From Eledone cirrhosa (Eukaryota): a stretch of DNA of 64,000 bases. Location of the stretch: positions 48,856,001-48,920,000 of the forward strand of contig OZ024747.1 in NCBI GenBank assembly GCA_964016885.1. The letters are read 5' to 3'. Below, in pieces: positions 6,028 to 63,069 of the stretch. The translations under genes were made by a program, and so were the position numbers. Within the stretch, counting starts at the first letter, position 1, and every line of letters starts with the position of its first letter. The notes beneath the pieces are model-generated. The model had not been told where the DNA came from. It ran no database searches and saw only the letters and a list, made by a program, of their open reading frames with translations.

Positions 6028-6028
<1 letters not shown>

Positions 6029-6295
6029 TGTTATACTTTGGGAGGGTCATTTTGCCAATAAAAAACACACGCACCAGTTGCTTTCACTCCAATTTATTAT
6101 AAATTAAATTCATAAATTTAGGAATTCATAAATTTCCGGTTGGTTGGTTGGTTCCACAACCGGACGGTTGTTCATATATTGTCAAAGTTCTTTCGTCACA
6201 CATTCTGTGACCTCTTCAGTAACTGGGTATTCTTCTCTTTGTTTTGTGCCTCTCCTTTGTTCTGTCCTACGCCATCTTGTTTTTGTGTGTGTTGT
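6028..6295 (-). mobile_element. PLE pLTR fragment, family O, with HHR at 6181-6223
   Basis: Near-identical to 55496-55740 and 62300-62549. Minus strand: CTGAAGA-G-GTCACA/TGTGAC-GAAA-GAAC-T-T-TGAC. Confidence 0.75.
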
Positions 6296-6886
6296 GACAC
6301 AACATTGGTTGAAAGAATATTGGTTAAAAGATAAATTGATTGAAAACGTACTAGTAGATATTAAATGCATCGAATGACGTATCCGTAAAAAAATATTTAT
6401 AGAAAAATATTTGTAGAGTGAAGTTCGTAGAAAAACATTGAAATAAATGGAAACTTAATGACGACATTTTAAAAGAAAGTATTTAAAATAAGAACAAATT
6501 ATTTTTACATGAAATATCTTTTCATTTCATTTACAGGTTTTCTCAGAAAGAGAAATATACTGAAGAGAAATATACTGAAGAGAAATATACTGAAGAGAAA
6601 TATATTGAAGAGAAATATATTGAAATTTAATTTGGATATGTTTTGTATGTGTACTTCTGTGTGTGTATATATATATATGTGTGTGTGTGTATGTGTATGT
6701 GTGTATGTGTGTGTATATGTGTGTGTATGTGGGTGGGTGTGCGTGTATATATATATGTATATATATGTATATATATACACACGTATGTATATATGTGGGG
6801 ATGTGTGCGCGTATATATATATATAAGCATATATATATATGTATATATACGTATGTATGTATATATATGTATATATATATATATAT

Positions 6887-7330
6887 AAAATAAAATAAAA
6901 TAAATAAGTCAAATATTAAAAATTTGGCTTCGTTTATTACTGCTATATATATTTCGGTGACAGCCATCTTTGGCTGTGACCCCTTCAGGGAGTCCGAATT
7001 GGTGTGGTAGAGACAGGTACACATGTTGTTGAGGTGTTTAACTCCGTCAATACTCCGATATTCCCAGTTCCTGGTTGGGTTGCTATTTCTCTGAGGAACT
7101 GGAATCATATGATTCGGACCAATTCGGTCTGCCTGAAGAGGTCACAGCCAAAGATGGCTGTCACTGAAATATATATAGCAGTAATAAACGAAGCCAAATT
7201 TTAAATATTTGACTTATTTATTTTATTTTACATTACTCCGGGGTAACCAAACCAACCTGCGCACTTCGTCGAGTGCTCCAATCTGCATACTGAGGTGTCG
7301 GTAAACAACCAACATATACTAACAAAAAAA
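6887..7330 (+). mobile_element. PLE-type fold-back element between TA/TG tracts
   Basis: Inverted arms ~6890-7003 and ~7118-7230. The 3' tail carries GAGTGCT (7271-7277). Confidence 0.75.
7129..7181 (+). ncRNA. Minimal type-I hammerhead motif
   Basis: CTGC-CTGAAGA-GGTCACAGCCAAAGATGGCTGTCACT-GAAA-TATATA-T-A-GCAG. Palindromic stem III and AUA triplet. Confidence 0.8.
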
Positions 7331-8539: not shown

Positions 8540-8793
8540 CTGTTTTTGTGCTTCTCCTTTGTTCTGTCCTACGCCAAGATCGCGTAGGACAGAACAAAGG
8601 AGAGGCACAAAAACAAAGAAAAGAATCCCCAGTCACTGTGACGAAAGAACTTTGACAATATATAAATAATCATCTGGTTGTGGAACCAACCAATCAACCG
8701 GAAATTTATAAATTCCTAAATTTATAAATTTATTATAATAAACTGAAGTGAAAGTAACTGGTGCGTGTGTTTCTTATTGGCAACATGACTCTC

Positions 8794-8797
<4 letters not shown>
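8540..8797 (+). mobile_element. Family O pLTR fragment with 5' fold-back; HHR core deleted
   Basis: Arms ~8541-8574 and 8582-8616. GTCAC is joined to TGTGACGAAAGAAC. Ends in (TA)n. Confidence 0.7.
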
Positions 8798-11469: not shown

Positions 11470-12457
<988 letters not shown>

Positions 12458-12464
12458 TTTAGAT

Positions 12465-12868
12465 ATGTAATCTGAGTTTTTCGAATATTAATAATAATAT
12501 TCAATTCGTTTGCAATTATGCAAACAAGCCTCATTTTTAAAGCCATGTCAGTAGAATGAGCCTCTCATTCTTGCTCTTGTGCTGGCATGTAAACAGACCT
12601 GCAGACACTAATGTTTCTGGGTATTACCCTTCATCAGTACAGTTCATTGACATGGCTTTAAAATGAGGCTTGTTTGCATAATTGCAAACGAATTGAATAT
12701 TATTATTAATATTCGGTTGCCTTTCATCCTTACGGGGTTGATAAAATAAAGTACCAGTAATGTACTGGGTAATTGCTGGCCTTGTGCCTAAAGTAGAAAC
12801 AATTATTAATATTCGGAAAACTCAGATTATATTTATTGTATTCAGCCATGTAGAGCGAAATTTTTTTT
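12465..12868. mobile_element. PLE-type fold-back element, family H, with HHR on the minus strand (12599-12642) and a SINE insert at 12717-12801
   Basis: Homologous to 14427-15225. The SINE is flanked by duplicated ATTATTAATATTCGG. Confidence 0.75.
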
Positions 12869-13993: not shown

Positions 13994-14342
13994 AAAGTTC
14001 TATTTAAAATTGTTGGGATACAACAAGTAAATATTTTTATAACTGATATAAAGCACTCGACAAGTATTTGAAGTAGATATACGATATTAATAAATGGAAA
14101 CTATATTTATAAAACCATATTTATTTCATTATACATATTTCAGGGATACCAAATTAAATTATGGTATGCCTTCATCAGACAAAATACAATATATAACAGT
14201 TTTACAAATAAGCTTTGACGTACCCTTTTAAAATGCAACCATTATTTTTGGAAGCCATCTGGATGACAAAATACAATATATAACAGCTTTGACGTACCCT
14301 TTGAATATGGTTTTATAAATATAGTTTCCATTTATTAATATC

Positions 14343-14345
<3 letters not shown>
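13991..14345 (-). mobile_element. PLE-type fold-back element in (TA)n with HHR at 14124-14184
   Basis: Minus strand: TTTTGT-CTGATGA-AGGCATACCA..TGGTATCCCT-GAAA-TATGTA-T-A-ATGAAA. Arms 14088-14121 and 14305-14345. GAGTGCT in the tail. Confidence 0.75.
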
Positions 14346-15363
<1,018 letters not shown>

Positions 15364-15398: not shown

Positions 15399-15611
15399 TT
15401 GTTTACTCCGGATTAATTTAAAAACAAGAAGTGTAAGTCAACAGGTTATAATTGATTTCGTTTATTCATATTCGCTGTTATATATATTTATCTATGTGAC
15501 CAGTACTTTGCGAAAACAACACCAAACTTCAGCACTGAGCATATACAAAAATTGAAATAACAGAAGTAAACTTTATTCGTTACGTTTTTCTGTTTTTCTG
15601 TTCAAATACTA

Positions 15612-15674
15612 GCTGTCTGATGAGGTCATAAATAACTGTTGAATAATGGTTATCAGCGAAATATATTTAACAGC
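15612..15674 (+). ncRNA. Hammerhead motif inside fold-back element ~15420-15726
   Basis: GCTGT-CTGATGA-...-GAAA-TATATT-T-A-ACAGC. Inverted arm at 15422-15489. Confidence 0.7.
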
Positions 15675-15722
15675 GAATATGAATAAACGAAGTTAATTAT
15701 AACCTGTTGACTTACACTTCGT

Positions 15723-19237: not shown

Positions 19238-19268
<31 letters not shown>

Positions 19269-19274
<6 letters not shown>

Positions 19275-19641
19275 AGATAAAAAGATGGTTAAAGGAGTTC
19301 CAAGTATTTTATTACGCGCATTTCAAAAACAAATATCATCATGGGATGATATCTGCGTTTTCATCAGATAAAATAGGGATACATGATATGAGTCTTTAAA
19401 ACTTCACTATTCACAAGTGTTTTTTAAGCTTCATATCATGTATCCCTATTTTATCTGATGAAAACGCAGATATCATCCCATGATGATATTTGTTTTTGAA
19501 ATGCGCATAATAAAATACTTTGAACTCTTTTAACCATCTTTTGATCTTATATTATTTATACTCCAGTCCTACAAACTGTAGAGTGCTACTTATCCGATAT
19601 TTGCATTGCTTTATTGTGCTACAATAAAACTCACCTCCTAC
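19269..19641 (+). mobile_element. PLE-type fold-back element in (TA)n
   Basis: Arms ~19269-19391 and 19431-19554. Tail carries GAGTGCT (19581-19587). Confidence 0.8.
19447..19517 (+). ncRNA. Minimal type-I hammerhead motif; second copy on the minus strand at 19305-19375
   Basis: TATTTTAT-CTGATGA-(long stem II GCAGATATCATC/GATGATATTTGT)-GAAA-TGCGCA-T-A-ATAAAATA. 8-bp stem I and palindromic stem III. Confidence 0.85.
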
Positions 19642-21777: not shown

Positions 21778-22550
21778 CTGGAAAAGTAGGTGAGTGGCTG
21801 CATGACTTTTTAAAGGACAGAAGCCAGACAGTCGCAGCAAACGGGGCCCTCTCAAAGGAAACATCAATAACAAGTGGGGTGCCCCAAGGCACAGTCCTCG
21901 GACCACTGCTGTTTTTGGTGACTCTCTCAGACATGCCCTCTGTAGTACATACCCCCCCCCCCCACACACACACACACTAGCTATGCTGATGACACTAAGG
22001 TAGCACAGGCAATCAAAACCCTGGCTGACGCTGCCCTTTTACAACAAGATCTGGATGCCATATAAAAATGGGTGGAAGACAACAACATGCAGTTTAATGC
22101 TGGCAAATTCCAAGCCCTACAATACAAACCTGCAAACACAAATATGGTACAACACAGTTACGCCGGACCTGGAAGGACCGATATTCCCGTGTCGAAATCG
22201 ATACGAGACCTGGGTATAGACATGAGCGACGATGTATCTTTTTCCTCACACATCATGAAAGTGGCGACAATTTGCAGGCGACTTGCTGGCTGGATCTTGA
22301 GGACTTTCCAGACAAGAGACCGAGACACCATGTTGACACTATGGTGGACATTTGTCCTAAGCCGCCTGGACTATTGCTCCCAGTTGTGGTCACCCCATAG
22401 TGTCCAACTAACCACGGAGCTTGAGGCAATCCAGCGAAGCTACACTAAGAGGATTGCCACAATGAAGGAGATAAGCTACTGGGAGAGGCTAAAAAAACTG
22501 AACCTCTACTCCTTGGAACGAAGACGGGAGAGATACGCAGTGATCTACAT
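21778..22550 (+). mobile_element. CR1/L2-group LINE RT fragment
   Basis: SGVPQGTVLGPLLF, YADDT, LDYCSQLWSP and LYSLERRRERYAVIY. Ends abruptly at the next element. Confidence 0.85.
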
Positions 22551-25500
22551 GATAAAATCTCATACCGGATCGGCCGTCACCCGGGTAAAAAAGAGCCGCG
22601 TCCCTCAGAGAGGAACCAGACTGGGGTCGAAAAATCAGCTAATGGTTCAAACCTTCCCATCACTTCGGAGCTGGAGACCTCCTATAACCGGAATACTCCT
22701 ACTGTTGGCCCTCCATGCTCACCACCAAGAAATCCAAAGAAAAAGAGAGAAAAATGGTCAAGGGAAGATAATAAAGAAGTCCTTGAGGCTTTCTACACTG
22801 CCATGTACAACCCATCAAATACATCGAATACAGAACAGACATATAGCAACTGGAAAAAGAAACATCCCGAAAACAGAGGCTATATTGACAGTAACAAACT
22901 AGCCAATATACGAAGAAATATTGTAAGAAAAAAGTTACTAACTGATATAGAAATTGATCAGATCAAGCTATTAGCACAAAGTCAGCGAAGGGAAAATGAA
23001 ACATGTGTCAGTGAAAACGAGGTAAACTGTAACACTTCGAATCCCAGGGTTGGGGCGGAATCACTGGCAACAGAACAAATTAAAGAAAGGATCGAAAAAG
23101 TGGAGGGAGTGCATGCTCAGGATGAAACTCTAAATGAAAATAATGAGATCGTAAATGATAAAGAAATGAATGAGAATGAACTTGCCAACTTGAAGGATGA
23201 AATTATGATCGAATGGATGAAAATGAAAGAATCTGACATGGGGGAACGAGACACCCTCCCTAAGATCCAGAACTCCAAACAGAACCAAAAGATAATACAC
23301 AAGACTAACATAATTCTCAAAAACATTATCATCACAAACAAACTAAACATTACTGATTTAAATCATCTCTATTATGCATCGGCTAAAGTCACCACTCACT
23401 TATGTGGAGTGAAGATGAAAAAACAAAGGAATTCCCACAAGAAATCTACTTGGCAAGAGAACATCAATCGCCAAATAAACCTTCTCCGATCTGACATAGA
23501 AATTTTAACAAACTATAAAGTAGGTGAACATGTTAAACAAACTAAACTTAGAAAATTGAAAAAAAAGTACAGTATTAAATCAACATGTGACATAGACATG
23601 CTGATAGAAATAATCAAGCAAAAAGTGTCGGCCAAAGCTGCTCGTATAAGGCGCTTTGAAAAACGATCTAGATTCTATAAGGACAATAATATGTTCAAAA
23701 ACAACCAAAGAAACTTCTACAGAAAAATTGGCAAGTCAACAATAACTGCTAAATCAATACCACCCAAGGAGGAAGTGCAAGAATTCTGGGAAAAGATCTG
23801 GGCCGAAGAAAAAGTTCATAACATACATGCCCCATGGATAGACAGACAAATGAAAGATACAGCTCACCTTGAGGAACAAACATGGGAAAATATAACAGTT
23901 GAACAGTTGCGCTTGGCTCTAAGAAAAACCAGCAAATGGAAATCCCCAGGAAAAGACAAAATACAAAACTTTTGGATAAATGCCTTCACAGAGTCTCATG
24001 AGCTGTTAGCCCAACTTTACAATGAAATAGTTAAGGAGCCAGAAAAGATACCTTCATGGCTAGTTAACGGCATTACATTCCTGCTTCCGAAGAATGATGA
24101 GACAAACAATCCCAAAAATTACAGACCGTTAACTTGCTTGACCACAATGTATAAAATTTTAACATCAGTCCTAACTGAATACACATATGATCACCTGATA
24201 ACAAATGACCTATTTCCCATTGAGCAGAAAGGGTGTAAACGAGGCTCATATGGCTGTAAGGATCAGCTTCTGGTTAACAAAATGATACTGGAAGATTGTC
24301 ATAATAGACACAAAAATCTATCGATTGCTTGGATAGATTATAAAAAAGCATTCGATAGTTTGCCACACAGTTGGATTGAAAAATGTTTAGAGATTTTCAA
24401 AATATCCCCCGTTGTCAGGAGGTTTTTGTCATTCAGTATGAAGACATGGAAAACGACACTCCTTTTGAATAGTGAAACAAAATCACTGGAAGCTGGAGAA
24501 GTTAATATTAATTGTGGAATTTTTCAGGGTGACTCTTTATCACCGCTTTTATTCTGCATCGCACTTATACCATTAAGTAAAATGCTCAATGAAACAAAAC
24601 ATGGATATAAAGTCTATGACAAAACCATTAATCACCTGTTCTACATGGATGACCTGAAACTATTTGCAAAAAATGATGAACAATTGCAAGGGCTATTATC
24701 CACTGTGAAGCAGTTCAGTGATGATATTAAAATGGAGTTTGGACTAGATAAATGCGCCAAAGCAACGTTCACCAGAGGAAAGCTGCTGAAGAGTTCAGAC
24801 ATTAATCTTGATCGGGGGAACGTGATAAGAGAACTTGATCAAGAAAAAACTTACAAATATCTAGGTGTTTGTGAAGGAGACGGAATCAAGCACTCGACAA
24901 TGAGGGAAAGGATAAGGAAGGAATGTTACCGCAGAGTAAGAGCAATCTTAAGAACGGAATTGAATGCAAGGAATAGGATCGATGCCATAAACACGCTTGC
25001 CATACCAGTAGTAACCTACAGTTACAATGTCATCAACTGGTCAAGCACAGAGATCCGTAGGCTCGATACAAAAATTCGAAAATTCTTAACCATGCACAGA
25101 ATGCATCACCCTAAGGCAGATATAGATAGAATATATCTCCCTAGGAAAGAAGGAGGACGTGGGTTAATCCAGTTAGACATTGCGTTGAAAACTGCAACAA
25201 TTGGATTATCTACATATCTAAGGGAATCACATGATTGGATGATCAAACTCGTTTTGAAACACGAAAGCATCAAAAGATCATATTCCATAACAAAAGATGC
25301 ACAAAGATACAGTAATGGACTACAAATTTAAGAAGTCCCATTTACTGCTGAAATGGAAATTACAGAAAAAGCAAAGCAGGTAAAAGTAACTGCAAAGAAA
25401 GAACTGCTACAGAAACTGGCTAAGAAATGGCAAGAAAAGCCTCTGTATGGAAAATACCCAGTGCGAGCTAACAATCCTGATGTTGACAAAACTTTAACCC

Positions 25501-26358
25501 ATCAGTGGTTGGCATCCTCTGGACTGAAATCGGAGACTGAAGGACTGATTATATCGGCACAAGATCAGTGTCTGCCAACAAAAAATTACCAAGCCAACAT
25601 AATAAAAAATGGGTGCAGCCCATTATGCCGAGTATGCAAAAAACAACCAGAGACCATTGACCATATAATTTCAATGTGCAGTCCTATAGCTCCAACCGAA
25701 TACCTAAACAGGCATGACAGAGCTGCACAATACATACATTGGATAATGTGTAAGCATTTTGACCTGCCCCATCAAAAGAATTGGTGGGAGCATCAACCAC
25801 CTCCCATACTTGAAAAAGTTCACATCTCAATCTTGTGGAACTTTAGCATCCAAACAGACCGAAAAACAGATGCAAACAGACCTGATATAATATTGAAAGA
25901 CTTTCAAAAGAGGGTATGCCTGCTAATTGATATGTCTGTTCCAATAGACAAGAATGTATCTATAAAAACATTTGAAAAATTGAGCAAGTATAAGGACCTG
26001 GAGATAGAAATTGGAAAAATGTGGAAATTGAGAACTAAAACAATACCAGTGGTTGTAGGCGCTCTGGGAATGATACCTAAGGGGTCTAATGATTACTTAT
26101 CGCAAATCCCAGGAAACCCGCGTATAGGAGAAATACAAAAGATAGTACTAATGGGAACTGCCCATATACTAAGGAAGATTCTGTCAATATAAGTACATCA
26201 CAAGTCTAAACACTAAAGATGCATGTGTGAATATGTATGTTCTTTCTTGAACATGGCGGACCTTGTTGTCTCTTGAGGTCACTGGTTGTGACTTGGTGAT
26301 AACTCGTATGAACATAAAGCAAGATAAATGCAACTGTAATAATAATAATAATAATAAT
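22551..26358 (+). mobile_element. RLE-type non-LTR retrotransposon (R4/Dong-like), near intact, with a (TAA)n 3' tail
   Basis: Single long frame encoding RT and a C-terminal CCHC plus restriction-like endonuclease. Ends in (TAA)n at 26337-26358. Confidence 0.88.
22803..26192 (+). pseudogene. RT-RLE polyprotein interrupted by one in-frame TAA (25329-25331)
   Basis: KSPGKD, NYRPLTCL, WIDYKKAFDS, GIFQGDSLSPLLF and YMDDLK, then CRVC..H..C, RHD, RPDIILKD, IDMSVP and KY. ORFs 22803 and 25353 share a frame, which is also open upstream (KWSREDNKEVLEAFY). Confidence 0.88.
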
Positions 26359-26750: not shown

Positions 26751-29700
26751 GATTTCTTTATTAACCACAAGGGTTTACATAAAGTAGACATTAAGGACAG
26801 TGCAGGACAATGCAGGACGGTACTAATGGGCATTTCTGCGTGTAAAAAACAAAAACAGAGGATGTAACAAAAAAATAACAATGAAAAATTCCCCAATAGG
26901 GGGGAGACTTCGGAGGGACATTAGTGGAGAAAGCCCAGTAAAAGGCCACAGTGGCCCTGACCACCAAGGTAAGTGCCCTCTCCCAGTTTTCCACCTTTAA
27001 TTTACATATACGTACTCAGAGTAGGCCCATTCACTCGGGCCATTCTTGCTTCTCTCACTCATCTTTCAACAAAATGCTGGGAAGAGAGCACTTCCCTCTC
27101 TACTCTGATTTTCCTTTTCAAATGAAATTTGAAAAAGTCAATCAGGGCATCAACGAAGAGGTAAGTGCTCGTCTTCAGCCCTTTCAAACGTGTCCACCAT
27201 ACTATCTCTTTCGCCATGGCCACCAGACAGATAAAAACTGCCTGCCCTTCCCGGCTAAAGGAAGAGGGCGGGGAAATCCTCACGATGGACTCAGCTGATA
27301 GCTGGATCCGTCCTACACGCGACAGCAGGTGTTCGACGTAAACCCACAAGTCAGCAATACTCGGACACTGGACGAGTGCGTGCAGGACGGTTTCGTTGCC
27401 CTGCGCGTATCTCGGACATGCCCGGCTGACGGCACCTCCATGCCTGTAGAGTTTATCCCGAACTGGAAAAGCTCCTCGGTAGCACTGCCAGGCCAGGGAT
27501 TTCTGGAAGTTGTCCATAGGCCCCGGCCCGAAAGTTCTTCCGAAGAGATTGGCTAGTTGATTTTCGTCGAAGCCTAGAGTTTCCCCAAGTACGTCGTCAC
27601 TCTTCCCCTCTCCTAATCCTCTATAGAACGCCAAGGTGGAGTTTTCACCATCACATTTCCCGACTGGTCGAGCGAGGGCTGTGAGCGCCTGAAGATATTC
27701 CAGTCTCCAAGCTCTCCCTCTCGGTCTTCGCTTGACCCAGGACTGCAGCTCCGTCAAGGAGACGAGCTGGGGAAAGACACGTCTAGCAAACGGCGACTAC
27801 ACCTGATCACCGTCGAGGAAGAGGTGGAGATGTCGTAGTCTGCGCATCATCAGCCACGGCATTCCCAACCCTCCACGCAACGGGTGTTGACAGCAGATGG
27901 ACCGCCTGACCATCGGAGCGCGTCCCTTCCACAAAAAGCCAAAGAGCAAACGCTCCAGTGCAGACAGGCGAGGCTTAGGACAAGGCACGACAGTCAGGCG
28001 GTAGTAGATGGAGGATGCGATGTACGCATTCGCCACCTCCGCTCGACCTTTCAGGGATAGCTTCCTCTCCGCCCATTTCTGAGTGAGAGAAGCCACCCTG
28101 CTCGTCACCTCGTCCCAGTTTTTGTCCGTCTGGAGGTCCGCACCGAACCAGACTCCTAGCAATTTAACCGGTCCGTCCGTCCAGCGCCCGACGACGCTGT
28201 TGGACGGCATGGACCTGCCTCTCCAGGTGCTGAGCTGCAGGCCCACCGACTTTTCCTGGTTGATCATTGCTCCTGTCACCGCTTCGTATTCTCTTAGTGT
28301 GGTGCCGATCACCTCGATGTGATTTGGCGTTCGACACCACTACGGTGACATCATCCGCATATGCTGACACGGATCTTCCGCATCCTTGTTCGCGCGGGAC
28401 CCCCCTCAACGTCTCCAGTATGTGCAGTAATGGCTAGAGAGTCAATACGTACAAGAGGGACGAGAGGGGACATCCTTAGCGGACCGAGCACATGATGTTG
28501 AACGGTTCCGAAAGGTGACCGTTCACTCTCACCACAGCAGATGTCGCTGTGCATGACAGCGATCCAGCCTCTGAAGACGGGCCCAAAGCCAGCCGCCCTC
28601 AGGACTGCCGCCAGATAATGATGGTCGACCCTATCGAAAACTTTCGACTGATCTAAATTGATCAAGGACCCACCCGTGCCAGGTTCCCTAGCTACCCTCA
28701 CCAGGCATGAGGTCGAGGTTGTCGTGGATGGATCTGTCGCGAGTGGCGCATGTCTGCGCCTCTCTCACCAGACCACCAACGACAAGCGCCAACCTCTTTG
28801 CTAGCACCTTGGCCAAAATTTTGAACTCTGTGTTTAGCAGAGTTATGGGCCTGAAATTATCTGTTATCCCCCTTGTTCGGAAATTTGCCTCCCGTACTTC
28901 AGCTGCTGTTATCGGCTTTTCGCAACACTCCGCCTCAGAAGTCGAGAGCCGCGGCAGTCCGTCGAGGTAGGCACTAAAGTCAATCCCTCGATCCGGCCCG
29001 CCGCTGCCCCCGAACAGCTGAGCGAAGTGTCGCTGAAAAGCTTCACACATTTGCCCGCGATCGAGTAGCATGCGCCTGTCGTGGTCCACCAAAGACCGGA
29101 TCGTGGCTTCGTTGCCACGACGCGCCTCCGCCACTCGGGCCCATTGAACGGCTTTCGTCCCCTCGTGTCTGAAGCACGCACCCTAGCTCTGACAACGCAG
29201 CCTTCGTGCTTTGCATTGAAGAATTGTCCAAGAGCCAATTTTGCCGTAGGTACGTCGGTCGCAATGCCTTTGCTAAGCGCCTCGTCTAATTTTCTAACTA
29301 GTTCTCCCTCTGCTCTATTTTTCTCTATTGCTAAAGCCTTACTAAACATAATTGACTCTATTCTAATCGCTCTTTTCAGAGCAAACCATCATTTGTTGTT
29401 GACGATGGCCCCCGTCAACTCCCGCTTAGCTAGTTCACTAATCCGGTCTCTGTAGGCCTTGCGCGCTGTTAATAACGCGTTTAGCTTCCAGTAGCCGGGT
29501 CCCTGTCTATAAGCCTATCTAAGTCAACCTCACAGATCACGAATTTGTGGTCCGCGTAGTCGACTATTTTGAAGTGTGGACAGCCTATACTAGACCTATC
29601 TATTTCCATACAAAATACCCTATCTAGATATGATCTAGATGACCCGATACGGTTTGTCCAAGTCCACATTGGCACATTTGGGAAATCCAGACGGTAGCTG

Positions 29701-31165
29701 TCAGACAGTTGAAACCGTCTGAGCAGGTTTGCGAGGCTTTTACACCCTCCTCCCCTATCCGCTAACCACACAGTCCCAGCGTGTATCTAAGATTCCTTTC
29801 CAGTCGCCCACTAACACTAAAGAGCGGGACGTTCCAAGAAAGGTCTCCAGACGCCGGAAGAAATCAGACCGCCCTGCTCCTGTCGGGGCATAGACGGCTA
29901 CTAGCCTCAAAGCTTGCCCGTCTCCACTGTTCACGTCCAACACCACCAACTTACCTTCTCGGTCCAGCAAGATGGCCCGTATGGCGAGATCCAAACCTCT
30001 CCGAAAAATTACAGCAACTCCTCCCCCCGATCCAGGACGCCTGGGAGATGCGTGTACATTGTAACCGCCGAAGATCGGTGCGAAGGCTCGTGCTTCGGAG
30101 ATTCTGGTCTCGCTGTTGGCCACCACATCTATGTTTAGTGACCTGAGGTTGTTGAGCAGGTGGCCCTGCTTCCATGACGACCCCAGGCCACGCGCAATTA
30201 TGCTGCCTATTCCTAGTGAGGTCATATTGAAAAGGAGTGGAAAAAGATGGGAAAGACCACTTACCTCACTTCTCGTAGGGCGAGGGTGGTTTTTCCATCC
30301 TTCTCACTGCTTGTGGCCTCCTCCCGAAGGATGTCGTTATAAATTCTCCTGGAGAGTGTTTGTCGGAAGTCTCCGATGTCTTTTGGGATTTTTTGTTTTA
30401 GTGTCGTGTACGTTTTCTGTGTGATGCGAGTGATTTGTGTGTGTGGAGGTGGTGTTAATTTCGAGGGTGTTGTGTAGTCTTTTTCTGTGATGCTGGTGTT
30501 GTGTTGGATGTAGTGTAATAATTGGTTGTTGTTCAAATTTAATGCTGTGTAGTGTGTATCGTTTTGGTTGTTTGGTTTTGTTTGCGTTTGTTGTGGGTTT
30601 GTTTCTGTTTCGCTTTTTGGTGACTTTTGTGGTGTTGGGGTTATTGATGGTGATGGTGTTGGTGTTTGTGGTGATGGGGTTGGTGATGCTGGTGTGGATG
30701 GTGGCATAGCTGTCCTAACTTTTTTGTTTATTTGTTTATTTGTTTATTTGTTTCCCCCTGCATTTTGTTTTTGGAGGGGGAAGGTAGAGGATTTTTTTCT
30801 TTTTTGGGTTCTTTTTCTTTTTTTCTTTTTTCCTGATACAGTTTCCCACTCCTCGTCGTCACAGTCTGTCTCCAGTTGCGATAGGTCGGGGAGTGGAAAA
30901 TCCTCCACAGGCGTTGGTTTTGGGTGTGGCGTGGTGGATGGTGGAGGCGCTGGTGCTAATTCTGGCGCGGTGGATGGTGGTGGTGTTGGTTTTGCTACTG
31001 TTGCTGGGGTTGTTTCTGCTACAGTTGCTTCTGTTGTTACTGCTACAGTTGTTGCTGCCATTTCTGCTGCTGGTGGTGTTGATGGTTGAGTCACTGGGGT
31101 GAGTAGGCGAGGTGGCCTCAACTTTTTAGCCTGAGGGCAGAAAGCCTTTAGGTGGGTTCCTTCAA
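26751..31165 (-). mobile_element. L1/Tx1-clade LINE, degenerate: ORF1 remnant, APE endonuclease, RT and C-terminal zinc motif
   Basis: APE: ARGL, SET, VYAPT, VGDW, SYLDRVF, DH. RT: RPITLLNTEFKILAK, LDQSKVFDRVDH, SAYADDVTV. C-terminal CP..ETVLHALVQC. Pro/Thr-rich ORF1 with HLKAFCP. Many frameshifts. Confidence 0.88.
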
Positions 31166-34084: not shown

Positions 34085-36256
34085 ATGACTTCTGCTAAAA
34101 AGCGCAAAATTGACCAAGTATGTCGTGTATTCCAAGAAGATTGGCTACACAAGTATTCCTTTACCATTGCCGAGAATAACGCGGTATGTTTGCTGTGACA
34201 AGAGACAATCACTGTGTTCAAAGAGTACAATTTAAAGCGACATCACCAAACAAAACATGAGGGTCTTGATCTCAACATGTCCGTTGAAGAACGGAGGAGA
34301 AAGGCATTGGATTTTGTGAGAAAACTGAACAAGCAAAACACTGTTTCCAAAATTATTGTTGCATCATGAAAGTACCGTAGAATCAGGTTTTATTGTAGCA
34401 TACAATCTTGAGAGTTTCTAAAACATTGCACGATGGATTGCGCAAGCACTGTGTACCTTGAAGTGAAAGGTAAATTTGAAAGCATTTCATTATCAAGACG
34501 GACGATTGTATGACGCATTGATGTAATAAGTAACGAGTTGGCTCAACAGCAGATTGTGTGTGGTACTCTGTAGCCCTAAATGAGAGTACTGACATCCAAG
34601 ACACTGCGAAGTTACTCATCTTCATTCGTGGAGTGACTGAGAATGTTCATGTCACAGAAGAGCTCCTTTCACTAAAGCCCATCAAAAGCACAACAGATCA
34701 GGATTTGTTTGAATGTGTGGTCAATTGTGTTAATAAAAATGCTTTATCATGGGATAAGTTGGTAAGCGTGACAACAGACGATTCCCTAGCATTTACAAGA
34801 GAAAATGTGGGCATGGTGAAACTCATTGAAAATAAGATCAGAAAAGACCATGCTGTTCATGCCATGTAGTGTTTCCACTGCATTTTGCACCAAGAGAGCC
34901 TGTGTCACGCTGCACTGAACTTGAAGCATGTGGTAGATCCGATGGTAGGTGTAGTAAACTCTATTAGGGAAAGGGCAATGGATCACTGACAGTTCAAATC
35001 TCTGCCGGAAGACGTGGAGGCTGAGCATTGAGATGTACTCTTCCACAATAACGTGCGGTGGTTGAGCCTGAGCAAAGTGCTGAAGAGAGTATAGGAGTTG
35101 TGACAAGAATTGCTTCTCTTTCTGGACATGAAGGGGGTTTCTTGGGACTTTGGAACAAAAATGTCCTGTTGAGACTGGAGATATGAACTAATGTTTGGAG
35201 TTGACAATTTTGATAAACTGAATGACCTGAATGTGACATTACAACGAAAGGATCTGTTTGCTCATGATATGTACAAGTATGTCAAGTCTTTTTCAGGCAA
35301 AACTTGCTTTGTTCTCCAGGCAAGCAGGTAAAGGCAAGTTCTGCCATTTTTCTTTATTAGGGAAGGAGAAAGTGTCTGCAAACGTCTCCTCACAGATCAT
35401 GCATCAGTTGAAGAGTTTAAAGGAGTTTGAAAGAAGGTTTACAGATTTCAAAAAGATTGAGCCTGAATTCAATTTCTTAACTTTCCCTTTCACTGCTGAT
35501 GTTGATGCAGCATTTGAAGAAATGCAGCTTGAACTAATTGACATGCAAGCAGATCACTTGTTGAAAGAAATGTTTCATTCTGTGCCATTAATAGAATATT
35601 ACTAATTTCTTTCAGATGAAAAAAATCTATGTTTGAGAAGCTTTGCTGCCAGATTGTTTTCTATTTTGGTGTCAACTTACAGAGTTTTTCCTGTCTTAAA
35701 ATAAATAAGTCCAAGAACAGATCTATGATTTCAGACACAAACCTGTATGCAGTGCTGAGAGTTAACCTAGTACCAGATTTTTAAAAATTTGTAACAAATT
35801 GTTGCATTGTTTCATTAAATTGTTCGTTTTGGTATGTTTTGCGATGTACAGACACAAATTAAAAGAAAACTTTGTTTTAAGATTTTTGTATCATTTTATT
35901 TATTTATGTAAAATAATTGTTTCTACTTTTGGTACAAGGCCAGCAAATACCCAGTACATTACTGGTACTTTATTTTTTCGACCCCGCAAAGTTAACCTCG
36001 ACGGGATTTGAACTCAAACCGTAAAGGGACGTACCTATGCTAGAAAGCATGGCGTCCAACCTTCTACTGATACTGCCAATTCACCGCCCTTTATTTATGT
36101 AATATAATGATGCAGTAAATATGTTATATTTTCTAAATTCTAACTGAAGAAAATTAAGGTTACTTTCACATTATATCCAATAATAAATGGTGTGGCCCTC
36201 TGGTGTTCATGGCCTAATCAATGTGGCCCCCAGTCCAAAAGGTTTGCCCACCTCTG
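34085..36256 (+). mobile_element. hAT DNA transposon (Charlie/SPIN/Buster, GTF2IRD2-like), decayed transposase with right end
   Basis: MTSAKKRK..FQEDW..VCLL..NLKRHHQTKH (BED finger), YSVALNESTD, FHCILHQESLC and VRWLS, with many stops. Subterminal GTGGCCC and TIR-like GGTTTGCCCACCTCTG at 36241-36256. Confidence 0.85.
35918..36089 (-). mobile_element. tRNA-derived SINE family 1 (Deu/Nin-domain-like)
   Basis: A box TGGCAGTATC and B box GAGTTCAAATCCC. TSD TTTATTTATGTAA. Confidence 0.8.
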
Positions 36257-47119: not shown

Positions 47120-47176
47120 ATATATATATAGTGACGAAACATAAGTCAATTGCATGAACTGATGATCCTTTATTTA

Positions 47177-47230
47177 CTGCTATATATATTTCGATGATAG
47201 CCAGTGAATGGCTATGACCTCATCAGGCAG
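47177..47230 (-). ncRNA. Minimal type-I hammerhead motif, relative of 7129-7181
   Basis: CTGC-CTGATGA-GGTCATAGCCATTCACTGGCTATCATC-GAAA-TATATA-T-A-GCAG. Confidence 0.8.
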
Positions 47231-47761: not shown

Positions 47762-48675
47762 ACATATATTACACACACATATATATATATATTTATTTGA
47801 CAACTACATACACACAGACACTAACACACATATGCACACACATACACACACACTCAGAATGGCAAGGGCCGTAACTCTATGCGTCAAAGCATGGCGTCCG
47901 CCCCTCTACCGATAACAAAAAGATATAATTGTTTCTACTTTAGGTACAAGGCCAGCAATTACCCAGTGCATTACTGGTACTTTATTTTATCGACCCCGTA
48001 AGGATGAAAGGCAAAGTCAACCTCGGCGGGATAGTATTTTAATCATGCAAATTGCTACAACTCAAAAAGCTCGAAGCTTAGTTGTTCTTTCACCTCCTTC
48101 CAATTGTTTAATCGCTGTCAACGGATCAGGCAGTCAACTGATCAAGATATCAATACATATATATATATGTATACACACACACACACACACACACATGTAT
48201 ATATATATATATATATACACACACACGTATATATATATGGACCTTCCAGTTTCATTTCCCATTACATACATGTCTGTGTATATTTTAGTTATTCAAAAAT
48301 TATTTTTAAGTGAACATGATGTTTTTAAATATTTTGAAGTGAATGTGACCCAACGGGTCACGGGTGGTCTAGTATACTACTAAAACTCTGTGATTGTTTG
48401 CTTCCTTGATTGTTCGTCTGTAATGTAATACAGACGAAAGGGCGCATAAAGGGGAAATACTTTGAAAAAAAGTTGACTCTGAAATGTGACTTTGACAATA
48501 TATCATCAACCTGCCGGTTATCGAACCAACCAACCAACCGGACATTTATAATAAATTGAAGTGAAAACCAACAGGTGCGTGTGATTTTTAATGGCAGCAT
48601 GACCCTCCCAAAGTATAACAATATATATATATATATATATGTGTGTGTATCTATATATCTATAGCTACTATATAT

Positions 48676-48875
48676 NNNNNNNNNNNNNNNNNNNNNNNNN
48701 NNNNNNNNNNNNNNNNNNNNNNNNNNNNNNNNNNNNNNNNNNNNNNNNNNNNNNNNNNNNNNNNNNNNNNNNNNNNNNNNNNNNNNNNNNNNNNNNNNNN
48801 NNNNNNNNNNNNNNNNNNNNNNNNNNNNNNNNNNNNNNNNNNNNNNNNNNNNNNNNNNNNNNNNNNNNNNNNNNN
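48676..48875. other. Assembly gap (200 N)
   Basis: Run of N. Confidence 1.
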
Positions 48876-55056: not shown

Positions 55057-55210
<154 letters not shown>

Positions 55211-55257
55211 CGTATGTGTATATATATATGTGTATATATTTATAATGTATATATATA

Positions 55258-55347
<90 letters not shown>

Positions 55348-55390
55348 GTATATATATATATGTATATATATATATATGTATATATATATT

Positions 55391-55421
<31 letters not shown>

Positions 55422-55460
55422 ATATAGGTATGTATATATATATATGTGTGTGTGTGTGTA

Positions 55461-55499
<39 letters not shown>

Positions 55500-55624
55500 A
55501 TGCTTTGCGAGAGCCATGTTGCCAATAAGAAACACACGCACCAGTTGCTTTCACTCCAATTTATTATAAATTAAATTTATAAATTTAAGAATTTATAAAT
55601 TTTCGATTGGTTGGTTCATATAGT

Positions 55625-55667
55625 GTCAAAGTTCTTTCGTCACACATTCTGTGACCTCTTCAGTGAC
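55625..55667 (-). ncRNA. Minimal type-I hammerhead motif in PLE pLTR
   Basis: GTCA-CTGAAGA-G-GTCACA gaatg TGTGAC-GAAA-GAAC-T-T-TGAC. Confidence 0.75.
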
Positions 55668-55866
55668 TGGGGATTCTTTTCTTTGTTTTTGTGCCTCTCC
55701 TTTGTTCTGTCCTACGCCATCTTGTTTTTGTGTGTGTTGTGTGCTTAGTTTGCGCATGTGTTACATCCGGGTGTCTGTGTGTGTTTATATTTGTTTATTT
55801 ATTTGTTTATTTACATGTTACTGGTTGGTTGTTTGTTCTATGTGCGTGTGTGTTTTCATTTTGTCC

Positions 55867-56430
55867 TTAATTGTAAGTTATGATGTTGCTATTCCATTCA
55901 TGTTTTCTATTTAATTTTGGTTGGAGTTCTTTTATGTTTATTGCCTCAGTGATTTGTCTAAACATTGCGTCTTTTCTGTGTGTAGATTCTATTTTTATTT
56001 CTATGTTCTCTAATTTGCCCTTATGTTCTATTTTAGCATGTTGGTGGAGTACAAAGATTCTTTTCTATCTTGAAGTTCTCGCCAGTGTTCATTTAACCGT
56101 TCTCCTACACTACGAGCTGTCTCACCTATGTACAATATATTCTTATCTTTACATTGTCCTTCAGTACATCTTATGCTATATACTACATTTCTACTTTTAC
56201 AGTTAATATGGGGGCTTAGTTTACAGATTATACATTTCTTATCTATGCAGGGAAGTCTTTGGAAAGGGTATGTATTGCTAATGAGTGTTTTTATGGAGGT
56301 ATCTGGTCTTTCTACTATCTTAATATTAAGTTTATGTTTATCTAGGGGCCCTTCTAAATTTGTTAGCTAGGGGTTGTATTGATGAATATTACACTCTGGT
56401 ATTTATTGCTATCATACCATGAGTTTATTC
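55867..56430 (-). pseudogene. PLE Cys-linker plus GIY-YIG endonuclease, frameshifted
   Basis: [66 protein letters not shown] / H..H..RQITEAINIKELQPKLNRKHEW..stop. Not in the ORF track. Confidence 0.85.
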
Positions 56431-56497
56431 TATTAACCTTATTCATAGTCCCTATAGAAAGACCTAGGAATGTATATATGTATATATATATATACGT

Positions 56498-60097
<3,600 letters not shown>

Positions 60098-62094: not shown

Positions 62095-62549
62095 ATTTTG
62101 TCCTTAATTGTAAGTTGTGATGTTGCTGTTCCATTCATGAATGGAACAGCAACATCACAACTTACAATTAAGGACAAAATGAAAACACACACACACATAG
62201 AACAAACAACCAACCAGTAACATGTAAATAAACAAATAAATAAACAAATATAAACACACACAGACACCCGGATGTAACACATGCGCAAACTCAGCACACA
62301 ACACACACAAAAACAAGATGGCGTAGGACAGAACAAAGGAGAGGCACACAAACAATGAAAAGAATTCCCAGTCACGGAAGAGGTCACAGAATATGTGACG
62401 AAAGAACTTTGACAATATATAAACAATCATCTGGTTGTGGAACCAACCAACCAACCGGAAATTTATAAATTTATTATAATAAATTGAAGTGAAAGCAACT
62501 GGTGCGTGTGTATCTTATTGGGAACATGACCCTCCCAAAGTATAACAAT
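62095..62549 (+). mobile_element. Family O PLE pLTR with a perfect 43-bp loopless 5' fold-back
   Basis: Arms 62095-62137 and 62138-62180. The HHR core is mutated to CGGAAGA (62375-62381). (TA)n on both sides. Confidence 0.85.
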
Positions 62550-63069
62550 ATATATATATATATATATATATAACTTTGTTAATTTATCAGCGGATTTCGC
62601 CTAATCAATAACCAATCGATCGACAGAATTAGACTCCAGTCCGTGCCGGCTATGGCTGTTTGTGACAGCCAGCACAGTAAAGCGATTAGCAACTGGAATC
62701 TCTACGCATCACAATGCTGTCCCCTGATTGGCTACCGATTTATAAATGTACGTGATGGTAGGAGACGAAAATTCAAATAGTGCGATAGTAACTATGGTAG
62801 TTCCTACAACCTTTTCCGGACATTAAATTCCAACCAGCGAATTAATTTGTTTTGCAAGATTTCATATCTGAAAACGTGTGTTCAAACAGATATTGTTATA
62901 CATTGGGCGGGTCATGCTGCCAATAAAAACACACACACACACACCTGTTGGTTTTAACTTCAATTTATGATAAATTTCCGGTTAGCTGGTATCCGCTTCC
63001 GCATATTTTGTATCTATCTCTATAGTTAATTTAGCTAGCAATCAATATTTATCATTGATTAACCAACAG

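What the first reader, a model, noticed from the sequence alone, without database searches (positions are those of the whole stretch)
55496..56470. Hidden GIY-YIG endonuclease remnant ties the HHR elements to Penelope-like retroelements
Seen: a frameshifted minus-strand frame missed by the ORF track reads C-x4-C-x2-C...C, then VVY..YIGETARSVGERLNEH..E..LNRKHEW, followed directly by the pLTR with an HHR. The same pLTR occurs without the ORF at 6028, 8540, ~48480-48620 and 62095. Known: a Cys-rich linker before GIY-YIG is typical of Neptune-like PLEs. The exact clade is inference.
Basis: partly seen in the sequence, partly recalled or inferred. Interest (0 to 1): 0.75.

Follow-up and report, generated by a model that had tools for sequence, protein, structure and literature searches.

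The report
Broken Penelope retroelement of unusual lineage
This is the broken tail end of a Penelope-like jumping gene (a nuclease remnant plus a predicted hammerhead ribozyme) sitting in a TA repeat, ordinary in itself, but its closest full-length relatives carry a reverse transcriptase with an extra ~70-residue insert that may mark a lineage outside the described Penelope clades.

Summary
Observation confirmed; clade call corrected. 55496-56470 (minus) is a 5'-truncated Penelope-like element (PLE) between two (TA)n tracts. It holds the post-thumb segment, a Cys linker and a GIY-YIG endonuclease with CCHH, split by two frameshifts, then a 371-nt 3' end with a minimal hammerhead motif. Its 5' tip is a 17-nt inverted duplication. 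Five more 3' ends lie in the window; one keeps an intact hammerhead. No RT lies upstream here, but relatives place a telomerase-like RT N-terminal of the nuclease, and other copies in reads continue the frame upstream.

The nuclease geometry is Nematis-type, not Neptune-type (7-residue linker spacer against 25-27). The relatives' RT fits neither: motifs A to B span 129-135 residues (60-63 in the canonical rows of Craig 2021), with G-x-x-I-G in motif B. This may be an unclassified PLE lineage, but no reference tree could be built and Repbase/Dfam were not searchable. The scan noted PLE ends with minimal hammerheads in two other genomes; no sequence look-alike was found.

The parts
55496..56470 (-). 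5'-truncated, decayed Penelope-like element copy
56454..56470 (+). 17-nt inverted duplication at the 5' junction; matches the opposite strand of the family's upstream sequence in 16 of 17 positions
   Evidence: window sequence compared by eye with the X1 loose-end consensus behind 56449 and the variant at 56445
56369..56449 (-). post-thumb coding piece (S-W-Y...Y-x-S-V-x-F...T-P)
   Evidence: tblastn with P0194, 17 of 27 identical; 12 of 150 homologues hit this frame
56201..56249 (-). Cys linker C-x4-C-x2-C, 7-residue spacer, C (Nematis-type geometry)
   Evidence: Craig 2021 Fig S2 text
56055..56186 (-). GIY-YIG core: VVY, two Cys of CCHH, YIG, catalytic R and H
   Evidence: Pfam PF01541
55867..56064 (-). 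endonuclease C-terminal half after the second frameshift: H..H, catalytic E and N, EW, stop TAA 55869-55867
   Evidence: 42 of 150 homologues hit this frame
56345..56366 (-). first frameshift: 23 nt where P0194 has 11 codons; other copies differ here by indels
56052..56056 (-). second frameshift; other copies differ here by a 1-nt indel
55496..55866 (-). 371-nt 3' end (pLTR-type region) finishing in ATAACA
55625..55667 (-). minimal type-I hammerhead motif: helix I 4 bp, CUGAAGA, extra G, helix II 6 bp, GAAA, 2-bp helix III, triplet CUU; predicted cut between 55629 and 55628
   Evidence: consensus features in PMC4209133; not found by Rfam at gathering score
55134..55495 (.). (TA)n tract at the 3' junction
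56473..56645 (.). (TA)n tract at the 5' junction
6029..6296 (-). 3'-end copy with intact hammerhead (G-U wobble keeps helix I), followed by (TA)n
8541..8797 (+). 3'-end copy with 36-nt 5' inversion, hammerhead core deleted, followed by (TA)n
62095..62547 (+). 3'-end copy with 45-nt 5' inversion, starts in the last ORF codons, hammerhead core U4 changed to G, TA tracts on both sides
48489..48620 (+). divergent-subfamily 3' end without recognisable hammerhead core, followed by (TA)n

Best explanation
This is the dead, 5'-truncated 3' end of a Penelope-like retroelement with a C-terminal GIY-YIG nuclease, likely inserted into a TA repeat by target-primed reverse transcription. Shown: the coding remnant, its two frameshifts, the hammerhead motif, the shared 3' terminus, the variable 5' ends, 5' inversions in 3 of 6 copies, and TA flanks. 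Inferred from the family literature: an intact master's RT-nuclease protein nicked AT-rich DNA, began copying at a fixed point of its RNA (the common 3' end), stopped early and resolved the 5' junction by fold-back. The short copies are the same event stopped earlier, not a separate element. The hammerhead would cut the RNA only as a dimer or with protein help (untested here). By homology the family belongs to a lineage that joins a Nematis-type nuclease to an RT with a ~70-residue insertion between motifs A and B.
For: GIY-YIG with CCHH and R/H/E/N. All three coding pieces hit the same homologues (P0003 summed E 8e-38). 104 of 118 longer relatives of hit P0071 match the element and none matches elsewhere in the window. 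In 51 of 89 proteins with RT motifs A and B a YIG-like motif lies downstream, in 0 upstream, 38 not parsed. The model of P0194 ranks 15 telomerase chains first (Z 10.1-11.4, rmsd 3.6-4.7, 268-372 aligned). In runs from 3 studies the family is multi-copy over 29 of 30 bins, other copies carry indels at both frameshift sites, and loose ends continue the frame upstream. 5 of 6 copies end at the same base and the sixth 9 nt short; 5 of 6 are followed by long (TA)n. A-to-B span is 129-135 in 69 of 69 aligned relatives.
Against: No RT is present in this copy or window, and no laid contig piece was shown to reach the RT core, so the RT features come from relatives at 50-63% identity over short stretches (P0194: 27 and 80 aa), not from this family itself. 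The 118 RT-bearing proteins were selected by similarity to one hit, so they are not independent; among the 150 unbiased hits only 8 reach RT motif C (7 have G-x-x-I-G, none has G-x-x-M-G). Support for the longer indel at 56366 is thin (44 of 185 reads, 3 starts, one run). Two copies (6029, 8541) have no TA tract at the 5' side. Helix I is only 4 bp and position 17 is U; the hammerhead region folds no better than shuffles (z -0.5).
Confidence: 0.9

Rival explanations
1. It is an ordinary Neptune-clade element.
For: Cys linker before a C-terminal GIY-YIG, CCHH, hammerhead, TA targets; Neptune is paraphyletic and diverse in Craig 2021, and only 4 nuclease rows and 2-3 RT rows of it could be read.
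Against: Linker spacer 7 against 25, 25, 27, 25; E-to-N 12 against 16; relatives' A-to-B span 129-135 against 60; motif B differs.
Confidence: 0.15
2. It is a Nematis-clade element (or sister lineage) whose RT later gained the insertion.
For: Linker C-x4-C-x2-C plus 7 residues equals 3 of 3 named Nematis rows; E-to-N 12; both have a lengthened stretch between RT motifs 1 and 2 (12-14 residues here; about 15 in Nematis by hand count).
Against: Nematis RT rows have an A-to-B span of 63, G-x-A-M-G and K-T-H-K; relatives here have ~131, G-x-x-I-G and K-D-H-K. E-to-N 12 is also Poseidon-like, so it is not diagnostic.
Confidence: 0.3
3. The short hammerhead copies are a separate non-autonomous, retrozyme-like family amplified from a fixed ~377-nt unit that starts at the stop codon.
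For: In run X17 about 31,000 reads leave the alignment at 55864-55872 with mixed flanks, and 73 reads (4 starts) join 55872 to 55496 head to tail. A 2026 preprint derives retrozymes from PLE pLTRs.
Against: The five short copies in the window start at five different places and none is tandem; X17 is a reduced-representation library, biased by a cut site; other PLE subfamilies sharing the 3' end could give the same loose ends.
Confidence: 0.2
4. A stand-alone GIY-YIG gene or chance open frame next to a repeat.
For: Pfam score is only just above cut-off; the first word-based search found nothing.
Against: 702 homologues, RT upstream in long ones, colinear match in three frames, PLE-type junctions.
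Confidence: 0.01

Closest known systems
Nematis clade of C-terminal EN+ Penelope-like elements (as printed in Craig et al. 2021, PMC8557442, Figs S1, S2, S7)
   Same: Short Cys linker (C-x4-C-x2-C, 7-residue spacer, C), CCHH, E-to-N 12 residues, C-terminal nuclease.
   Different: Relatives' RT has an A-to-B span of 129-135 (63 in Nematis), G-x-x-I-G for G-x-A-M-G, L-R-K-D-H-K for Y-K-T-H-K, and a W-Y...V-F-V-x-x-T-P post-thumb segment.
Neptune clade
   Same: Cys linker before a C-terminal GIY-YIG, CCHH, hammerhead, microsatellite targeting.
   Different: Neptune has a 25-27 residue spacer, a 16-residue E-to-N stretch ending G-L-N, and an A-to-B span of 60.
Hydra clade
   Same: C-terminal nuclease, K-D-H-K in RT motif 1, (TA)n targets, hammerheads often with U at the cleavage site (File S2).
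   Different: Hydra lacks CCHH, has a C-x-C-x5-C linker, no IFD and M-G-S-Y-D-G in motif B.
Naiad/Chlamys and telomerase RTs (insertion in fingers, IFD)
   Same: An insertion at the same position between RT motifs A and B.
   Different: Nuclease is C-terminal and a hammerhead is present; the span (~131) exceeds Naiad (84) and is near human TERT (118) by hand count. Homology of the insert to the IFD was not shown.
Minimal hammerheads of metazoan PLEs (Cervera and de la Pena 2014, PMC4209133)
   Same: Short helix I, extra base before helix II, G10.1-C11.1 pair, vestigial helix III.
   Different: Loop 3 region is not a clean palindrome; helix II is 6 bp rather than 7-8.

Membership tests
C-terminal EN+ PLE | GIY-YIG with CCHH (two Cys between GIY and YIG) | tested here: met
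C-terminal EN+ PLE | Conserved catalytic R, H, E, N | tested here: met
   56099, 56087 (H of EH at 56090), 55947, 55911 (N of LN at 55914)
C-terminal EN+ PLE | Telomerase-like RT upstream in the same ORF | tested here: inconclusive
   absent from this truncated copy; present in relatives; reads extend only into the thumb end
C-terminal EN+ PLE | Hammerhead motif in the 3' repeat | tested here: met
   sequence and pairing only; activity not testable
C-terminal EN+ PLE | 5' truncation with adjacent inverted copy | tested here: met
   3 of 6 copies inverted
C-terminal EN+ PLE | Partial tandem pLTR-ORF-pLTR in full-length copies | not testable with these tools
   no genome held; no long piece listed
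Neptune | CX2-5CxxC linker before the nuclease | tested here: met
Neptune | Long linker spacer (25-27 aa) and 16-aa E-to-N stretch as in the 4 printed rows | tested here: not met
   7 and 12 against hand counts
Neptune | RT groups with Neptune RTs in a tree | not testable with these tools
   no reference sequences available to the tree tools
Nematis | Reduced linker (7-aa spacer), E-to-N 12 | tested here: met
Nematis | Canonical RT fingers (A-to-B 63, G-x-A-M-G, no IFD) | tested here: not met
   tested on relatives only: 129-135 in 69 of 69; no G-x-x-M-G in 268 proteins screened, of which 122 reach motif C
Nematis | RT groups with Nematis RTs in a tree | not testable with these tools
   as above
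Naiad | Nuclease N-terminal to RT | tested here: not met
   stop codon and 3' end follow the nuclease; 51 downstream, 0 upstream in relatives
Hydra | CCHH absent, C-x-C-x5-C linker | tested here: not met
Penelope/Poseidon | No Cys linker | tested here: not met
Non-LTR retrozyme | Tandem units each with a hammerhead | tested here: inconclusive
   none in the window; 73 reads with 4 starts in one run

The most novel reading that the evidence does not exclude
The element belongs to an undescribed, deep-branching ninth clade of Penelope-like elements, present in octopods, sea cucumbers and many unnamed metagenome records, that joins a Nematis-type C-terminal nuclease and a hammerhead to an RT with a conserved ~70-residue insertion at the telomerase IFD position, the first C-terminal-nuclease PLE lineage defined by an IFD-sized insert.
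Probability: 0.35. Interest if true: 0.65.

Novelty: new variant of a known kind. Interest (0 to 1): 0.4.

Why it matters
The locus itself is routine: PLEs cover 6.83% of the Octopus vulgaris genome in 190 families (PMC13282606 supplement), and hammerheads in PLE ends are known since 2014. The value lies in the relatives. Craig 2021 state that canonical PLE RTs lack the insertion in fingers that telomerases, Naiads and Chlamys carry. A widespread C-terminal-nuclease lineage with a larger conserved insert at that position would change the PLE clade scheme, bear on whether the insert is ancestral to PLEs and telomerase or gained repeatedly, and supply long open-frame RT-nuclease proteins for biochemistry.

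Tried and rejected
No genome is held, so no search for intact copies. Rfam found nothing at gathering score in the window. The first word-based protein search of longer proteins found nothing; the exhaustive phmmer did. Sequence search of solved structures with P0071 found nothing; the profile reached only two bacterial defence RTs around motifs B-C. A tree of 46 linker-nuclease rows placed the element near P0003 without starred support; it held no named clade references and the length filter dropped P0194, so it says nothing on clade. A search with the insert alone returned 3 proteins of the same lineage among 116 candidates; the Atlas gave unnamed clusters for the A-to-B region and generic RT, HTH_animal, DUF8422 and GIY-YIG labels for P0194. 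No RNA holder was listed. No covariation count was obtained for the hammerhead; six window copies, two intact, are too few. Rejected: Naiad, Hydra, Poseidon (membership table); assembly artefact (family and indels seen in runs of 3 studies); a fixed-length non-autonomous family inside the window (five different 5' ends).

Full report
Observation. The minus strand of 55496-56470 lies between two TA tracts (55134-55495 and 56473-56645). The 111-residue central piece hits Pfam GIY-YIG at 23.1 bits, cut-off 22.6, and 702 proteins at E<=0.001 among 1.84 billion representatives, best 3.9e-27 at 50% identity. Laying the 150 listed hits back on the window gave matches in three minus frames: 150 of 150 at 56366-56013, 42 at 56064-55816 and 12 at 56467-56357. 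So there are two frameshifts, and the coding remnant runs from the end of the RT thumb through a Cys linker to a GIY-YIG domain with CCHH and the R, H, E, N residues, ending at TAA 55869-55867.

The 3' end and its copies. The 371 nt after the stop codon recur at 6029-6296, 8575-8797, 62136-62547, 48489-48620 and 62894-62990. Five of six copies end at the same base, the sixth 9 nt short, and five of six are followed by long (TA)n. Their 5' ends all differ. Two carry long 5' inversions (8541-8576, 62095-62139). The element's own first 17 nt match the opposite strand of the family's upstream sequence in 16 positions (one search compared by eye), making 3 of 6. A minimal hammerhead descriptor after Cervera and de la Pena 2014 hit only 55663 and 6219, against 0.01 hits per simulated window and 0 of 5000 simulated 3' ends; I allowed U17 after seeing the site, although U at this position is common in published PLE hammerheads (File S2). 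The other copies have the core deleted, mutated or absent. Rfam found nothing, and the region folds no better than shuffles.

Other copies in public data. Sixteen runs from 12 studies hold part of the stretch; four were laid (3 studies; the best may be the window's own source). In X1, 13,056 contig records cover 29 of 30 bins. Other copies differ by a 1-nt indel at 56345 (497 of 675 reads in X17; all depth in X4 and X5), by a longer indel at 56366 (44 of 185 reads, 3 starts, X17 only) and by a 1-nt indel at 56053-56055 (33 contigs in X1, 7 in X4, 3 in X5). The first two sum to the 10-nt shortfall against P0194 (23 nt for 11 codons). In 14 of the 40 substitution rows shown, at least 95% of X1 depth differs from the window (124 rows not shown). 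The breaks are therefore likely private to a decayed copy. Loose ends beyond 56449 (X1) and 56425 (X5, median 138 nt) read on as thumb-end sequence like P0194, but no listed piece reaches the RT core.

The relatives. The closest labelled proteins are P0003 (source label Octopus bimaculoides, uncharacterised) and P0194 (Octopus vulgaris, 'reverse transcriptase domain'; 63% and 50% identity over 27 and 80 residues); sea cucumber proteins also appear. The window's own origin was not determined. 104 of 118 longer relatives of hit P0071 match the element and none matches elsewhere in the window. The model of P0194 (69 sequences, pLDDT 84, pTM 0.84) ranks telomerase chains in the first two Foldseek rows and the first 15 VIA rows (Z 10.1-11.4, rmsd 3.6-4.7, 268-372 aligned; next a group II intron RT at 10.0). 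This is the RT type expected of PLEs.

Clade. Craig 2021 give the Cys linker to Neptune, Nematis and Naiad. Hand counts from the text of their Fig S2 give a spacer between CxxC and the next Cys of 7, 7, 7 in Nematis and 25, 25, 27, 25 in Neptune; E-to-N is 12 in Nematis and Poseidon, 16 in Neptune. The element has 7 and 12. Among homologues the spacer is 6-11 (mode 7) in the 87 of 150 that parsed, and E-to-N is 12 in 108 of 165 parsed proteins, the element's own piece included. The nuclease is thus Nematis-type. The RT of the relatives is not. From the Asp of motif A to the first Gly of motif B there are 129-135 residues in 69 of 69 aligned proteins with 29-99% pairwise identity; hand counts from Fig S1 give 61 (Penelope), 63, 63 (Nematis), 60, 60 (Neptune), 84 (one Naiad), 118 (human TERT), 122 (one Chlamys). 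The insert holds nine positions conserved in at least 90% of rows and is modelled at pLDDT 87-97. Motif B reads G-x-x-I-G in 110 of the 118 and in 7 of the 8 unbiased hits that reach motif C; none has G-x-x-M-G. Motif 1 reads L-R-K-D-H-K, like Hydra. Against over-reading: these RTs are relatives, not this family; the 118 were picked by likeness to one hit; I saw only 2-4 rows per clade; Neptune is paraphyletic; and inserts at this position occur sporadically in Coprina and in two rotifer Penelope families.

Mechanism. Shown: anatomy, breaks, junctions, copy family. Inferred from Frangieh 2024 (a Poseidon element nicks AT-rich DNA, starts reverse transcription at fixed internal sites, and has a protein-assisted hammerhead that is dispensable for insertion in vitro), Arkhipova 2013 (palindromic inverted junctions read as self-priming) and Craig 2021 (linker proposed to aid TA targeting): an intact master inserted cDNA at TA sites from a fixed 3' end, with early termination and fold-back at the 5' junction. 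The short copies are the shortest products of the same process. A retrozyme-like 377-nt subfamily remains a lead from one reduced-representation run.

Literature seen. PMC8557442: abstract, sections 3, 6, 11, 12, 17, 22, passages, and supplement parts 1, 2, 53-55, 57-59 plus one term search (file cut when stored; tree and clustering figures not visible, and they may include this lineage). PMC4209133 and PMC11167929: parts 1-2 of 4. bioRxiv 10.64898/2026.07.22.740005: part 1 of 5 and passages; it lists eight clades; supplements closed. PMC3846280, PMC8967140: passages. PMC13282606: passages and one supplement row. Arkhipova 2006 was not read. Nine searches returned no title or abstract describing such a lineage, and the motif-B strings were absent from the held Craig supplement, which prints few canonical rows. 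Repbase and Dfam could not be searched. Two earlier notes of this scan describe PLE ends with minimal hammerheads in other genomes (unchecked); no sequence look-alike was found.

Verdict. A real but ordinary PLE remnant; 'Neptune-like' is not supported in the strict sense. The point worth following is the long-insert RT lineage. Interest 0.4; probability that it is an undescribed clade 0.35.

Noticed in passing
window 22449-26192 (+): Nearly intact non-LTR retrotransposon ORF (960 + 286 aa) broken by one in-frame TAA at 25329-25331; RVT_1 E 6e-29. Its C-terminal CCHC and PD-type motifs suggest Dong/R4 (recalled, not tested).
   Followed up: partly
window 6891-7245, 15416-15690, 14150-14351, 19262-19560, 14538-15165, 12465-12715, 47166-47230, 43398, 5287, 61041: About a dozen further CUGANGA...GAAA hammerhead-like cores, several in fold-back pairs next to (TA)n, forming at least two small families (7133/47226; 15011/14693/12637) unrelated to this 3' end by blastn; likely ends of other PLE families.
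   Followed up: partly
window 56655-60096: 57-nt satellite, about 59 copies, built on an 8-nt subunit, directly beyond the 5' TA tract.
   Followed up: no
reads of run X17 on window 55864-55872 and 55496: About 31,000 reads leave the element right at the stop codon with mixed flanks, and 73 reads join 55872 to 55496 head to tail (377-nt unit): possible retrozyme-like subfamily.
   Followed up: partly
window 27059-30303 (-): Decayed LINE with AP-type endonuclease and zf-RVT hits; L1/Tx1-like by recall.
   Followed up: no
window 48346-48500: Several short hairpins directly upstream of the divergent 3'-end copy, one followed by GAAA as in a hammerhead helix II but without the CUGANGA core; an N gap lies at 48676-48875.
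   Followed up: partly
window 11902-12458 (-) and 34534-35605 (+): DNA-transposon-like ORF remnants (HTH_32 hit for the first; mariner-like and hAT-like by recall).
   Followed up: no
protein P0110: One nuclease homologue of 311 aa is fused to a protein kinase domain (Pfam E 4e-18), perhaps a chimeric gene call.
   Followed up: no
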